Origin: Naegleria gruberi
Lineage: Eukaryota
DNA length: 1,055 nt
Reading direction: 5' to 3' (one strand)
Assembly: GCA_000004985.1 (NCBI GenBank)
Contig: GG739589.1
Shown here: one piece after another, positions 1-1,055 of the stretch
How the letters are laid out: every line of letters begins with the position of its first letter
How positions within the stretch are numbered: position 1 is the first letter of the stretch
Program-made: the position numbers and the translations under genes
The notes under the pieces: model-generated
What the model was told of the DNA's origin: nothing
Databases searched by the model: none
The model's input: only the letters and a program-made list of their open reading frames with translations

Positions 1-19
1 TACCAACTCCCGAACGGCT

Positions 20-37
20 GCGATTCAGACGGTTCCG
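20..37. repeat. Internal 18-mer sub-repeat a (gcgattcagacggttccg) in module copy 1
   Basis: It matches 99-116 at 16 of 18 positions. The identical 18-mer is at 391-408 in copy 2. Confidence 0.7.
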
Positions 38-98
38 TAATTGCATAATCAATGAATGTATCGCGTAGCTGACGTTTCACAAATAGAAGTGAAGGAGG

Positions 99-116
99 GC
101 GATTCAGGCGATTCCG
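99..116. repeat. Internal 18-mer sub-repeat b (gcgattcaggcgattccg) in module copy 1
   Basis: It matches 20-37 at 16 of 18 positions and lies immediately 3' of gaaggagg. The identical 18-mer is at 471-488. Confidence 0.7.
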
Positions 117-159
117 ATTAAGAGACCGGTGTCCATAGATTTAATTTGATTATAAATAT

Positions 160-184
160 AGTGACTTTCGGAATCACTTTTTTT
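160..184 (+). terminator. Intrinsic-terminator-like hairpin plus T7 run at the 3' end of module copy 1
   Basis: The stem is agtga (160-164) paired with tcact (174-178), with an inner tt/aa pair and a cgg loop, followed by a T-run at 178-184. The stem is short and AT-rich, so it is thermodynamically weak. Confidence 0.35.
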
Positions 185-240
185 ATGTTTGAAACATGCT
201 CAAAAATCAATTTCTATAAAATAAAATCTTTACAAAAGGT

Positions 241-266
241 TATATAGATAATAGATAGATATATAT
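241..266. repeat. Low-complexity (ATAG/GATA)n-like tract
   Basis: tatatagataatagatagatatatat is visible directly in the sequence. Confidence 0.6.
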
Positions 267-282
267 TCATAAAAATCATTGT

Positions 283-299
283 CAACTTTTGAACGGCTG
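283..299. repeat. Solo partial copy of the module 5' terminus (caacttttgaacggctg vs caactcccgaacggctg at 4-20 and 375-391)
   Basis: The match is 14 of 17, with the 9-mer gaacggctg exact. The three differing bases are ccc to ttt. Loose similarity continues for about 10 more nt and then is lost. Confidence 0.5.
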
Positions 300-315
300 G
301 GTTCTAGCCATTTTT
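295..315 (+). terminator. Small GC hairpin plus T5 run (weak terminator-like)
   Basis: ggct (295-298) pairs with agcc (306-309) around the 7-nt loop gggttct, followed by ttttt at 311-315. It lies immediately 3' of the solo gaacggctg motif. Confidence 0.25.
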
Positions 316-329
316 GATATAATAGTTAT

Positions 330-357
330 TTGACTATACAATGATATATAATAATAT
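330..357 (+). promoter_or_regulatory. Possible sigma70-type promoter upstream of module copy 2 (TTGACT-16-TAATAT)
   Basis: The -35-like ttgact is at 330-335 and the -10-like taatat at 352-357, separated by a 16-nt spacer. This would put a start site around 364-366, just before the copy 2 boundary at 371. The region is AT-rich, so chance matches are frequent. Confidence 0.2.
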
Positions 358-390
358 CAATTTTTTGAGGTACCCAACTCCCGAACGGCT

Positions 391-408
391 GCGATTCAGA
401 CGGTTCCG
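391..408. repeat. Internal 18-mer sub-repeat a in module copy 2
   Basis: Identical to 20-37. Confidence 0.7.
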
Positions 409-449
409 TAATTGCATAATCAATGAATGTATCGCGTAGCTAACGTTTT

Positions 450-460
450 CAAAAAAAAAA
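450..460. repeat. A11 homopolymer tract inside the divergent patch of module copy 2
   Basis: aaaaaaaaaaa is at 450-460. The corresponding region in copy 1 (75-89) is cacaaatagaag, which is interrupted. Confidence 0.8.
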
Positions 461-470
461 ATGAAGGAGG

Positions 471-488
471 GCGATTCAGGCGATTCCG
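471..488. repeat. Internal 18-mer sub-repeat b in module copy 2
   Basis: Identical to 99-116. Confidence 0.7.
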
Positions 489-531
489 ATTAAGAGACCG
501 GTGTCCATAGATTTAATTTGATTATAAATAT

Positions 532-557
532 AGTGACTTTCGGAATTCACTTTTTTT
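532..557 (+). terminator. Intrinsic-terminator-like hairpin plus T7 run at the 3' end of module copy 2
   Basis: The stem is agtga (532-536) paired with tcact (547-551), with a 10-nt loop, and the T-run is at 551-557. The arrangement is the same as in copy 1. Confidence 0.35.
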
Positions 558-824
558 ACATTCGATTTAGACGATTTAATGGTAGTATAATTGAGTATAC
601 AGGTCTATTATAAAGAATATATTGGGTAGAAACGGGTTAATTTTTTTAATCGATTTTATGCATATATTACAAGAGGAATATAATGTTTTACAGTATTTGG
701 TTATTTTAAAATCGGCTAGAAATGAAGTGAGGACAAAAATTTTAAAAAATTTCAGTCAAAAATATGGTCATATTTATCAGTAAACTATATCTTGTGGATT
801 TATATATTAATAGATTTTTCGTTT

Positions 825-852
825 TTGACACCTCTATTGTAAACACTATAAG
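825..852 (+). promoter_or_regulatory. Sigma70-type promoter-like element (TTGACA-16-TATAAG) directed toward the GC-rich structured element
   Basis: A perfect -35 hexamer ttgaca is at 825-830. A 16-nt spacer follows, then tataag at 847-852 (5 of 6 match to TATAAT). The predicted start site is around 859-861, about 25-35 nt upstream of where the GC-rich structure begins. Confidence 0.35.
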
Positions 853-884
853 ATTATTTATTTATAGTTATTTCCATATCTACT

Positions 885-1055
885 TTCGAGTTCATCGAAC
901 CCCCCGAAATGTCTGAACTTCAGTTCCTAACCTTGCGGACAGCAGGATCCTAAGGGATTACCCTCATCGAGGGTATCAACGCCCTTCGGAGCCCCCAATG
1001 GGTCAACCACCCGTTGGGGCCTGCTGTTCACACCGGGGGTCGGTAACCCTCCCCG
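885..1055 (+). ncRNA. Unidentified GC-rich, highly structured RNA-like element (truncated at the window end). Alternatively an organellar-type GC cluster.
   Basis: GC content rises abruptly from about 25% to about 60%. A long-range helix pairs 937-946 (ggacagcagg) with 1020-1029 (cctgctgttc); it is 10 bp with one G·U. It encloses four hairpins. The first is ccctc/gaggg (961-965 with 969-973), which competes with aggg/ccct (953-956 with 961-964). The second is gcc-c(ttcg)g-gc at 981-992, carrying a C(UUCG)G tetraloop. The third is a 10-bp stem at 993-1002 with 1010-1019 and a 7-nt loop tcaacca. The fourth begins at 1035-1051 (ggggg/ccctc) and is cut by the window end. G·U pairs at 938·1028, 999·1013 and 1036·1050 would be A·C mismatches on the minus strand, which favours + strand transcription. 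I found no match to tRNA, 5S, tmRNA, RNase P, SRP or the common riboswitch cores from memory. Confidence 0.4.

What the first reader, a model, noticed from the sequence alone, without database searches (positions are those of the whole stretch)
1..558. Two near-identical non-coding modules of at least 185 bp, 370 bp apart, each ending in a hairpin plus T7
Two copies that differ by only a few point changes and one small variable patch imply either a recent duplication or ongoing sequence homogenisation.

Neither copy contains a conserved ORF. The only ATG-led ORF, in copy 2, is 10 codons long, and its ATG is absent from copy 1.

Each copy ends in a hairpin plus T-run, and copy 2 is preceded by a plausible -35/-10 pair. 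That is the architecture of a small self-contained transcription unit, so a duplicated sRNA gene of about 185 nt is one reading.

Alternatively, direct repeats of this size are classic substrates for homologous recombination. They could delete or amplify the 185-bp segment between them, as in subgenomic circle formation in AT-rich organelle genomes.

The module has no terminal inverted repeats, so it is not a MITE-type element.
Basis: seen in the sequence. Interest (0 to 1): 0.65.

Follow-up and report, generated by a model that had tools for sequence, protein, structure and literature searches.

The report
Naegleria rDNA-circle spacer tandem repeat
The two look-alike modules are two copies of a 373-bp tandem repeat in the non-coding spacer of the circular ribosomal-DNA plasmid of a Naegleria gruberi-type amoeba, an ordinary kind of spacer repeat and not a small-RNA gene, although it carries a short element conserved across Naegleria species.

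Summary
The repeat is real: window 1-185 and 371-557 are 95% identical. The interpretation needs changing. The window is eukaryotic. It matches, end to end at 99.3%, the non-ribosomal spacer (NRS) of a 13.8-kb circular rDNA element (CERE) of a Naegleria gruberi-complex amoeba, on the rRNA sense strand.

The modules are the 3' halves of a head-to-tail 373-bp duplication (186-bp AT-rich spacer plus 185-bp module). Close relatives carry one unit. One single-unit form is the hybrid expected from unequal crossover in a two-unit array.

The sRNA reading fails:
- Sigma-70 and intrinsic-terminator logic does not apply to a eukaryotic spacer.
- The hairpin is only -2.5 kcal/mol, no better than shuffles.
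- The module folds no better than shuffles.
- There is no Rfam hit.
- Only the first ~45 nt of the module are conserved in another species.

That conserved part, CAACTYYYGAACGGCTGSGWTTC, recurs 2-8 times in the NRS, 0.3-2.9 kb upstream of the conserved GC-rich block next to the 18S gene, in three or four Naegleria lineages. I read it as a protein-binding cis-element for Pol I control or replication. That function is inferred, not shown.

Verdict: a new member of a known kind, of low to moderate interest.

The parts
1..187 (+). 3' half of tandem unit 1 (module copy 1, about 3-184). The window begins inside the unit.
   Evidence: Window 3-1055 matches L003 13476-14530 at 99.3%. L003 13290-13475, upstream of the window start, repeats the spacer half.
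188..560 (+). Complete tandem unit 2: AT-rich spacer half (188-371) plus module copy 2 (372-558).
   Evidence: TRF on L003 gives period 373, 2.0 copies, 98%. Window 188-558 also matches L003 unit 1 at 98.7%. See alignment A3.
4..37 (+). Conserved upstream repeated element, module type: CAACTCCCGAACGGCTGCGATTCAGACGGTTCCG.
   Evidence: There is a third 34-nt copy just upstream of the array in L003 (13179-13212), L002 and L021. It is conserved in L014 at 4531-4561, with HMM E = 1e-5 from a model built on the L003 lineage only.
375..408 (+). The same conserved element in unit 2, 514 bp upstream of the GC-rich block.
283..321 (+). Conserved upstream repeated element, spacer type: CAACTTTTGAACGGCTGGGTTCTAGCCATTTTTG. 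It contains a 6-bp GC hairpin.
   Evidence: the repeat finder family D3. It is 87.5% identical over 40 nt to L008 5704-5743. L014 has CCGAAACGGCT about 90 bp upstream of its module-type element, the same spacing as here. The hairpin folds at -8.0 kcal/mol, z = -1.7.
99..116 (+). Half-element GCGATTCAGGCGATTCCG (two 9-mers) inside module copy 1.
   Evidence: The pattern GCGATTCAGRCGRTTCCG occurs 4 times in the window against 0.00 expected. Related ACTTGCGATTCAGAGGATTC copies lie further upstream in the NRS.
471..488 (+). The same half-element inside module copy 2.
562..590 (+). Degenerate further copy of the half-element (CGATTTAGACGATTT...) just after unit 2.
   Evidence: This is the best local match of the module's 5' motif downstream of the array. 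It is listed with 3 mismatches in L002.
71..90 (+). Variable patch, unit-1 type (CACAAATAGAAG). The unit-2 type at 442-461 is an A-run.
   Evidence: Alignments. The patch type marks the recombinant in L002.
161..184 (+). Weak 5-bp hairpin plus T7 at the end of the module (second copy at 533-557).
   Evidence: -2.5 kcal/mol, not better than shuffles. Not called by the terminator scan. No hairpin or T-run could be seen in L014 downstream of its conserved element (read by eye; no alignment there).
889..1055 (+). Start of the conserved GC-rich block that runs to the 18S gene. It is a probable 5' external transcribed spacer, and the junction motif TCGA(A)CCCCCCGAAAT is a candidate Pol I start region. 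It is context for the repeat, not part of it.
   Evidence: L003 14364-15263 aligns to L014 4962-5731 at 70% over 924 columns, starting exactly at the AT-to-GC junction. The junction motif is present in L003, L014 and L008. The region folds with z = -5.7 on the + strand. The GC profile is shared by 5 lineages.

Best explanation
The window is part of the non-ribosomal sequence (NRS, the spacer between the 28S 3' end and the 18S 5' end) of the closed circular extrachromosomal rDNA element (CERE) of an amoeba of the Naegleria gruberi complex. It reads on the rRNA sense strand and ends 732 bp before the 18S gene.

Shown:
- The two 'modules' are the 3' halves of a 373-bp head-to-tail tandem duplication, each unit being a 186-bp AT-rich half plus a 185-bp module.
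- The array varies in copy number between near-identical elements: two units in the window, L003 and L004; one unit in L002, L021 and L024.
- The L002 single unit combines the unit-1 patch with the unit-2 loop and unit-2 downstream flank. That is the expected product of unequal crossover in a two-unit array.

Inferred mechanism of the repeat: unequal homologous recombination or replication slippage among roughly 4,000 circles per cell generates and removes units and keeps the copies similar.

Payload:
- Each unit carries two copies, about 92 bp apart, of a 26-34-nt element, CAACTYYYGAACGGCTGSGWTTC..., plus a half-element.
- The element recurs, mostly in the same orientation, 0.3-2.9 kb upstream of the conserved GC-rich (probable 5' ETS) block, in Naegleria lineages whose spacers are otherwise unalignable.

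Inferred function: the element is a binding site for a sequence-specific factor acting in the upstream control region of the rDNA. My estimates are about 0.4 for Pol I enhancer, upstream-terminator or UCE-type control; about 0.3 for replication origin or fork-barrier function; and about 0.3 for no function beyond history. The duplication itself is probably a recent, near-neutral copy-number variant. It is not an RNA gene.
For: Context:
- The metagenome match L002 carries eukaryotic LSU, 5.8S and SSU rRNA plus a GIR1 ribozyme.
- L003 and L004 carry the full rDNA cistron. L003 is more than one turn of a 13,799-bp circle.
- Window 3-1055 matches L003 13476-14530 at 99.3%.
- Two primers that I recall as the Naegleria-genus ITS primers match exactly. 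The forward one is also printed, as its reverse complement, among the N. fowleri CERE primers in PMC13398248.
- The intron homing endonuclease is closest to those of N. italica, N. philippinensis, N. gruberi and N. andersoni.
- The ORF that starts 5 nt after the window end is in the same 90% cluster as BAF74738.1 and AUH25139.1 'hypothetical protein [Naegleria gruberi]', and is 94% identical to the former.

Tandem unit: TRF period 373 x 2.0 at 98%; sequence.

Copy-number variation and the hybrid unit.

Conserved element:
- AACGGCT-centred sites number 6, 4, 2 and 8 against about 1.2-1.5 expected.
- An HMM built only from L003-lineage sites finds L008 5704 (E = 1e-5), L014 4531 (1e-5), L014 2880 (1.4e-5) and further sites at E<0.01. 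All lie in the NRS upstream of the 18S gene and none in the rDNA.
- Between L003 and L014, upstream of the junction, a handful of short islands of 29-102 nt align. Those that fall inside the tandem array are confined to the 3' end of the spacer half and the first ~45 nt of the module.

Literature:
- Naegleria NRS are 'repeat-laden' and poorly conserved. N. gruberi EGB has 7 repeat families of 34-371 bp (PMC5805870).
- An N. australiensis 360-bp NRS repeat varies between 2 and 3 copies (PMC10586121).
- The sequences controlling CERE replication and rRNA transcription are unknown (PMC13398248).
Against: No experimental data were available here: no transcript ends, no protein binding and no origin mapping.

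The orientation bias and clustering of the element could partly reflect old duplications rather than selection.

The most distant lineages give only a marginal hit (L011, E = 0.02) or none (L015).

The assignment of the GC-rich block as 5' ETS, and of its start as the Pol I start region, rests on conservation and composition only.

I could not read the paper that maps the N. gruberi origin to a 2.1-kb NRS fragment. I therefore cannot say whether that fragment includes this array.
Confidence: 0.85

Rival explanations
1. Replication-origin domain. The tandem 373-bp units are the Naegleria counterpart of Tetrahymena rDNA 5'-NTS Domains I and II. Those are a tandem 430-bp duplication upstream of the rRNA promoter, each domain carrying an ORC-binding type I element. 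On this reading the conserved element recruits the initiator, and the flanking AT-rich DNA unwinds.
For: The architecture is parallel. Both are extrachromosomal high-copy rDNA with a tandem duplication of about 400 bp a few hundred bp upstream of the (probable) transcription start. In both, a short conserved element is present once or twice per unit and again nearby (the Tetrahymena layout is in PMC9967165, read). The units are 21-33% GC around the elements. A single origin lies somewhere in the N. gruberi NRS (PMC13315211).
Against: The location of the mapped 2.1-kb origin fragment relative to this array is unknown to me. One-unit variants exist, so two units are not required. Similarity to the Tetrahymena type I element was not tested. 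Most eukaryotic ORCs are not sequence-specific.
Confidence: 0.2
2. Pol I terminator or replication-fork-barrier sites. The element would bind a Myb-type TTF-I/Reb1-like factor, as a promoter-proximal terminator array. The nearby T-runs would serve as release sites for read-through Pol I coming round the circle.
For: The orientation is mostly uniform relative to rRNA transcription. T-runs lie next to several copies: T6 at 361-366 lies 8 nt before the element at 375, and T7 at 551-557 lies 4 nt before the degenerate copy at 562. On a single-cistron circle, the upstream spacer must stop polymerases before the promoter. That last point is my own inference.
Against: No copy lies within about 3.4 kb downstream of the 28S 3' end in L003, which is where primary terminators would be expected. 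In L014 and L008, A-runs rather than T-runs precede the element. Promoter-proximal terminators known to me are single sites.
Confidence: 0.15
3. Purely neutral spacer repeat. On this reading both the duplication and the short element are relics of past duplications in a fast-evolving spacer, with no function.
For: The duplication is recent (95-98% identity) and dispensable, since one-unit relatives exist. The NRS is full of other repeats with variable copy number. The elements all lie in one region and mostly in one orientation, as duplication history alone could produce.
Against: The element survives in L014 and L008, where its flanks no longer align with L003. In L008 and L014 the copies are dispersed with irregular spacing and unrelated flanks. 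The 90-92-bp spacing of the two element types is kept between the window and L014.
Confidence: 0.3
4. Duplicated small-RNA gene: a transcript of about 185 nt from its own promoter, ending at the hairpin plus T-run.
For: A T7 run could terminate RNA polymerase III (my own knowledge). The module ends are sharply defined in both copies.
Against: The sequence is a eukaryotic spacer, so sigma-70 and intrinsic-terminator signals are irrelevant. The hairpin is no better than shuffles. Module folding gives z = +0.67 to +1.29. There is no Rfam match at E<=1. Only the first ~45 nt are conserved in L014. The sharp module 'ends' are just the window start and the tandem-unit boundary.
Confidence: 0.03
5. 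Spacer promoters. On this reading each unit contains a duplicate of the rRNA gene promoter, as in the Xenopus, Drosophila and plant intergenic spacers.
For: By eye, ATAGTTATTT occurs at both 321-330 and 863-872, and CCCGAA..G.CTG occurs both at the module start and at the GC junction.
Against: Local alignment of 840-969 against the unit scores no better than 43 of 500 shuffles. The module motif's best downstream match is the degenerate copy at 562-590, not the junction. In L014 the equivalent comparison is at chance, with 707 of 1000 shuffles as good.
Confidence: 0.05

Closest known systems
Repeat families of the Naegleria CERE non-ribosomal sequence (N. gruberi EGB/NEG-M, N. fowleri LEE, N. 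australiensis, N. pringsheimi)
   Same: Same molecule and same region. These are non-coding direct and tandem repeats of tens to hundreds of bp. The copy number differs between molecules or strains: the N. australiensis 360-bp repeat has 2 versus 3 copies (PMC10586121), N. fowleri has a 168-bp tandem repeat (PMC7714845), and N. gruberi has 7 families of 34-371 bp (PMC5805870).
   Different: Contigs carrying the exact N. gruberi NEG-M ORF (L024), or a close variant of it (L021), have one unit. The two-unit array is therefore a variant of a distinct strain in the complex. I could not check whether the published '34 bp' and '371 bp' repeats are these ones.
Tandem subrepeats of rDNA intergenic spacers upstream of the Pol I promoter (for example the Didymium iridis 260-bp D-motif 'upstream promoter region' array, and the Xenopus, Drosophila and plant spacer repeats)
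   Same: The position is the same: in the spacer, a few hundred bp upstream of the (probable) transcription start. The units are head to tail, the copies are heterogeneous but similar, and the array shows strain polymorphism (PMC13182076 for Didymium; the others from my own knowledge).
   Different: There are only one or two units. There is no detectable similarity to the gene promoter. No palindrome is nested in the unit.
Tetrahymena thermophila rDNA 5' NTS Domains I/II with type I elements
   Same: Both are extrachromosomal high-copy rDNA with a tandem duplication of about 400 bp upstream of the rRNA start site. In both, a short conserved element is repeated in each unit (PMC9967165).
   Different: The Tetrahymena molecule is a linear palindrome, whereas this one is a circle. 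Origin and ORC-binding function is demonstrated there and untested here. Sequence relatedness was not tested.
Bacterial sRNA gene with an intrinsic terminator
   Same: A non-coding stretch of about 185 bp ending in a T-run.
   Different: The context is eukaryotic. The hairpin is not stable, the fold is not conserved and there is no family match.

Membership tests
Naegleria CERE non-ribosomal sequence (rDNA plasmid spacer) | Lies between the 28S 3' end and the 18S 5' end of a single eukaryotic rDNA cistron on a circular element of about 14-16 kb | tested here: met
   Window matches L003 13476-14530. The LSU ends at 7263 and the next SSU starts at 15262. The same features recur with a 13,799-bp period.
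Naegleria CERE non-ribosomal sequence (rDNA plasmid spacer) | Genus and species-complex assignment | tested here: met
   Two primers recalled as Naegleria-genus ITS primers match exactly. The intron HEG is 82-89% identical to named Naegleria HEGs. The flanking ORF is in the same 90% cluster as two N. gruberi GenBank proteins, at 94% identity. No direct comparison with AB298288 or MG699123 DNA was possible.
rDNA spacer tandem subrepeat | Head-to-tail repetition of a non-coding unit | tested here: met
   TRF period 373, 2.0 copies, 98%. No conserved ORF.
rDNA spacer tandem subrepeat | Copy-number polymorphism by unequal exchange | tested here: met
   Two units in the window, L003 and L004; one unit in L002, L021 and L024. 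The L002 unit is a unit1/unit2 hybrid.
rDNA spacer tandem subrepeat | Enhancer, terminator or origin activity of the unit | not testable with these tools
   This needs transfection, ChIP, run-on or 2D-gel data.
Spacer promoter (duplicate of the gene promoter) | Significant sequence similarity between the repeat and the gene promoter or start region | tested here: not met
   43 of 500 shuffles score as well. The motif's best match is not at the junction, and in L014 707 of 1000 shuffles score as well.
Bacterial sRNA gene | Bacterial host with sigma-70 promoter signals | tested here: not met
   The rDNA context is eukaryotic. Promoter-like matches number 8 against 4.4 +/- 2.0 expected.
Bacterial sRNA gene | Stable GC-rich terminator hairpin followed by a T-run | tested here: not met
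   -2.5 kcal/mol; 84 and 52 of 200 shuffles fold as well. Not called.
Bacterial sRNA gene | Conserved sequence and structure over the whole RNA, or membership of a described RNA family | tested here: not met
   z = +0.67 to +1.29. No Rfam match at E<=1. Only ~45 nt are conserved in L014.
Tetrahymena-type 5' NTS origin domains | Tandem duplication upstream of the rRNA start site, with a conserved short element in each unit | tested here: met
   The layout is compared with PMC9967165.
Tetrahymena-type 5' NTS origin domains | Replication initiates there, and ORC binds the element | not testable with these tools
   The N. gruberi origin paper (Protist 2019) is not held.
MITE or other transposable element | Terminal inverted repeats or target-site duplication | tested here: not met
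   0 inverted-repeat pairs in the window. The unit boundaries show only T-run or ATGTTT microhomology.

The most novel reading that the evidence does not exclude
The element of about 30 nt, CAACTYYYGAACGGCTGSGWTTC, is carried twice per 373-bp unit and is conserved in the upstream spacer of several Naegleria species. It could be the first defined cis-acting control element of the Naegleria rDNA circle. It would be either the initiator-binding site of the CERE replication origin, with the tandem units playing the role of Tetrahymena Domains I/II, or the upstream control or terminator site for RNA polymerase I.
Probability: 0.3. Interest if true: 0.55.

Novelty: new member of a known kind. Interest (0 to 1): 0.3.

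Why it matters
As found, this is an ordinary spacer repeat, and the small-RNA idea can be dropped.

Its value lies in the context. Recent papers on Naegleria, a genus that includes the brain-eating N. fowleri, state that the sequences governing CERE replication, origin licensing and rRNA transcription are unknown. They also say the spacer is too divergent to find them by comparison (PMC13398248, PMC13315211).

Two things here are conserved across species against that background. One is the short element clustered upstream of the conserved GC-rich junction. The other is the junction motif itself, TCGACCCCCC(C)NAAAT. Both are concrete, testable candidates for an origin or promoter. They could also help in building CERE-based vectors.

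Tried and rejected
- **Bacterial, phage or plasmid origin.** There was no blastn match in plasmids or phages. A 44-mer had no exact match in 185,579 prokaryotic genomes. The one viral-contig hit to the 18-mer is a chance match in unrelated GC-rich DNA.
- **Organelle genome.** I considered this because of the AT-rich, ORF-free 1 kb with a GC island. I dropped it once the nuclear-type rDNA context appeared. No tRNA was found. No long conserved ORF appears under alternative genetic codes.
- **Known RNA family.** None at E<=1 in the window. Only rRNAs and GIR1 pass the gathering thresholds in the relatives.
- **Structured RNA.** The module folds no better than shuffles on either strand.
- **Covariation within the module.** I did not attempt this, because the available copies are 95-99% identical and the only distant relative aligns over ~45 nt.
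- **Spacer-promoter duplicate.** Rejected on shuffle tests.
- **More distant CEREs through the ORF after the window.** The search returned only its own 90% cluster.
- **Origin location.** Neither the Protist 2019 origin paper, nor the Plasmid 2021 review, nor Clark and Cross 1987 is held.
- **Assembly artefact.** Unlikely. The two-unit array, with the same order of patch types, is present in the window and in two independent JGI assemblies.
Full report
**1. The observation**

The window contains two direct copies of a module of about 185 bp. The repeat finder reports 3-88/374-459 and 75-184/447-556, with start-to-start spacing of 371-372. A global alignment of 1-185 with 371-557 gives 179 matches, 5 mismatches and 4 gap columns, which is 95.2%. 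Four of the five substitutions lie in the patch at 80-89/452-461; the fifth is at 71/442.

Each module contains the 18-mer GCGATTCAGRCGRTTCCG twice. That makes 4 matches in the window against 0.00 expected. A partial copy of the module's 5' end sits at 283-299.

There is no conserved ORF. Both copies share an ATG at 56/427, but the frames diverge after an indel. No ORF exceeds 62 aa in the standard or bacterial code. The longer open frames seen under other codes, up to 123 codons, are not conserved.

The T7 runs are real. The 'hairpins' have 5-bp stems with 9-10-nt loops at -2.5 kcal/mol. Of 200 shuffles, 84 and 52 fold at least as well. They are not called by the terminator scan, and promoter-like matches are not enriched.

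**2. Where the window comes from**

Rfam (E<=1), the tRNA scan, plasmids, phages and prokaryotic genomes all gave nothing.

An exact 22-mer scan of metagenome records found L002 (VFQN01005947.1, 14.4 kb). Its minus strand matches window 188-1055 at 99.2%. L002 carries eukaryotic LSU, 5.8S and SSU rRNA genes and a GIR1 branching ribozyme.

The His-Cys-box ORF downstream of the 28S gene led to L003 and L004 from two JGI samples.
- L003 matches the window from 3 to 1055 at 99.3%.
- L003 contains the SSU, 5.8S and LSU genes twice with a 13,799-bp period. It is therefore more than one turn of a circle.
- The window's + strand is the rRNA sense strand.
- The window ends 732 bp before the 18S 5' end.

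Several results place the element in genus Naegleria:
- Two primers that I recall as the Naegleria-genus ITS primers match exactly. The forward one is also printed, as its reverse complement, among the N. fowleri CERE primers in PMC13398248.
- The SSU-intron homing endonuclease of L002 is 82-89% identical to those of N. italica, N. philippinensis, N. gruberi and N. andersoni.
- The ORF that starts 5 nt after the window end belongs to the same 90% cluster as two GenBank 'hypothetical protein [Naegleria gruberi]' entries, BAF74738.1 and AUH25139.1, and is 94% identical to the former.

[quoted passage not shown] The literature describes these NRS as repeat-laden and poorly conserved. It reports one origin in a 2.1-kb NRS fragment in N. 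gruberi and gives no defined promoter (PMC5805870, PMC7714845, PMC11008152, PMC13398248, PMC13315211).

**3. What the repeat really is**

In L003 the repeat is a head-to-tail duplication of a 373-bp unit (TRF: 13290-14033, period 373, 2.0 copies, 98%). Each unit is a 186-bp AT-rich half followed by the 185-bp module. The window starts in the middle of unit 1.

Copy number differs between near-identical elements:
- L002 is 99% identical to the window. L021 and L024 carry an N. gruberi-type flanking ORF, which in L024 is the exact NEG-M protein. All three have a single unit.
- The window, L003 and L004 have two units.

Alignment A3 is informative about history.
- The single unit of L002 has the unit-1 patch (CACAAATAGAAG) but the unit-2 loop (CTG) and the unit-2 downstream flank.
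- That is the product expected from unequal crossover between the two units of an L003-like array.
- L021's single unit has the A-run patch and may be the ancestral state.

That idea was a recent duplication or homogenisation, with direct repeats acting as recombination substrates on a multicopy circle. The molecule, however, is a nuclear rDNA plasmid and not an organelle genome. N. australiensis shows the same behaviour for a 360-bp NRS repeat, with 2 versus 3 copies (PMC10586121).

**4. Why it is not an sRNA gene**

- Bacterial promoter and terminator logic is inapplicable to a eukaryotic spacer.
- The hairpin is at chance level.
- The module folds no better than shuffles on either strand.
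- No RNA family matches.
- In the next-nearest species available (L014), only the last ~45 nt of the spacer half and the first ~45 nt of the module are alignable. The second motif and the hairpin/T-run are not.

**5. What is conserved**

Other-species CERE contigs were obtained through the intron endonuclease: L008, L011, L014 and L015. All of them have a GC-rich block of 0.5-1 kb directly upstream of the 18S gene, preceded by AT-rich spacer.

Between L003 and L014 this block aligns at 70% over 924 columns. The alignment starts exactly at the AT-to-GC junction, which is window 889. The junction motif TCGACCCCCC(C)NAAAT is present in L003, L014 and L008. The window's part of the block folds with z = -5.7 on the sense strand. 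In a 4-sequence alignment, 8 of 33 consensus pairs show a compensatory change. I read the block as the 5' external transcribed spacer and its start as the candidate Pol I start region. This is an inference.

Upstream of the junction, only a handful of short islands of 29-102 nt align between L003 and L014. Those inside the tandem array belong to one element family, CAACTYYYGAACGGCTGSGWTTC....
- AACGGCT-centred sites number 6 (L003 circle), 4 (L008), 2 (L011) and 8 (L014), against about 1.2-1.5 expected.
- An HMM built only from the three L003-lineage variants finds L008 5704 (E = 1e-5), L014 4531 (1e-5), L014 2880 (1.4e-5) and further sites at E<0.01.
- All of these lie in the NRS, 0.3-2.9 kb upstream of the 18S gene. 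None lies in the rDNA.
- In the window the elements sit at -885, -606 and -514 relative to the junction, with half-elements at -790, -418 and -327.
- The ~92-bp spacing between the spacer-type and module-type elements is also kept in L014.

**6. Mechanism**

Shown:
- Spacer location.
- Tandem structure.
- Copy-number variation with a recombinant unit.
- Cross-species conservation and clustering of the short element.

Inferred:
- Units are gained and lost by unequal homologous exchange or slippage among the many circles in a cell.
- The duplication itself is near-neutral.
- The element is a protein-binding site in the upstream control region.

I cannot separate three functional readings. My estimates are about 0.4 for Pol I upstream control, about 0.3 for a replication origin or fork barrier, and about 0.3 for no function.

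The spacer-promoter idea was tested and is not supported.

The closest architectural analogue is the Tetrahymena rDNA 5' NTS. There a tandem 430-bp duplication (Domains I and II) upstream of the rRNA start carries the ORC-binding type I elements (PMC9967165). The Didymium 260-bp 'upstream promoter region' array is another analogue (PMC13182076).

**7. Novelty and score**

Spacer subrepeats with variable copy number are a well-known kind, and Naegleria NRS repeats are already catalogued. This particular two-unit array appears to be a strain variant. I therefore call it a new member of a known kind.

The by-product may be of some use to people trying to find the CERE origin and promoter. It consists of a genus-conserved upstream element and a conserved junction motif.

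Overall interest is 0.3.

Noticed in passing
window 889-1055 (L003 14364-15263): There is a sharp AT-to-GC switch into a block conserved up to the 18S gene: 70% identity with L014 over 924 columns, starting exactly at the switch. The block is strongly structured on the sense strand (z = -5.7). The junction motif TCGACCCCCC(C)NAAAT is shared by three lineages. The block is a probable 5' ETS and a candidate Pol I start region, which has not been mapped in Naegleria as far as I could find.
   Followed up: partly
L002 13282-14434 versus L003 1463-3482: L002 carries a twin-ribozyme group I intron in the SSU gene, with a GIR1 ribozyme and a 254-aa His-Cys-box homing endonuclease. L003 and L004 are 99% identical to L002 in the spacer but have an uninterrupted SSU gene. 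This is an intron presence/absence polymorphism between very close rDNA circles.
   Followed up: partly
L002 6341-7408 (-), L003 7861-8916 (+): The homing-endonuclease-like ORF downstream of the 28S gene (PF05551) is intact in relatives at 99%, 81% and 58% protein identity (P0001-P0003). The N. gruberi EGB paper called it a likely pseudogene. Its preservation as an ORF suggests it may be expressed.
   Followed up: no
L002 5622-6335; L003 8960-9243: A second variable tandem repeat lies in the same spacer. It has a 119-bp unit, with about 6 copies in L002 and 2.4 in L003.
   Followed up: no
L003 736-1272 (begins 5 nt after the window end): The 173-178-aa 'hypothetical protein' annotated on N. 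gruberi CEREs (BAF74738.1, AUH25139.1) lies entirely inside the GC-rich 5' ETS-like block. It has no homologues outside its own 90% cluster and is probably not a real gene.
   Followed up: partly
L003 14529-14550; L014 5141-5160: The sequence CGCCTGATGAAGGGCGGTGG is identical in L003 and L014 inside the putative 5' ETS. It could be a processing or snoRNA-binding site.
   Followed up: no
L003 10706, 12624, 12844 and 13160 (-); L005 3181: A related family, ACTTGCGATTCAGAGGATTCTCTTAATCCAG, shares the GCGATTCAG core with the module. It lies further upstream in the spacer, inside larger repeats of 48-174 nt.
   Followed up: partly
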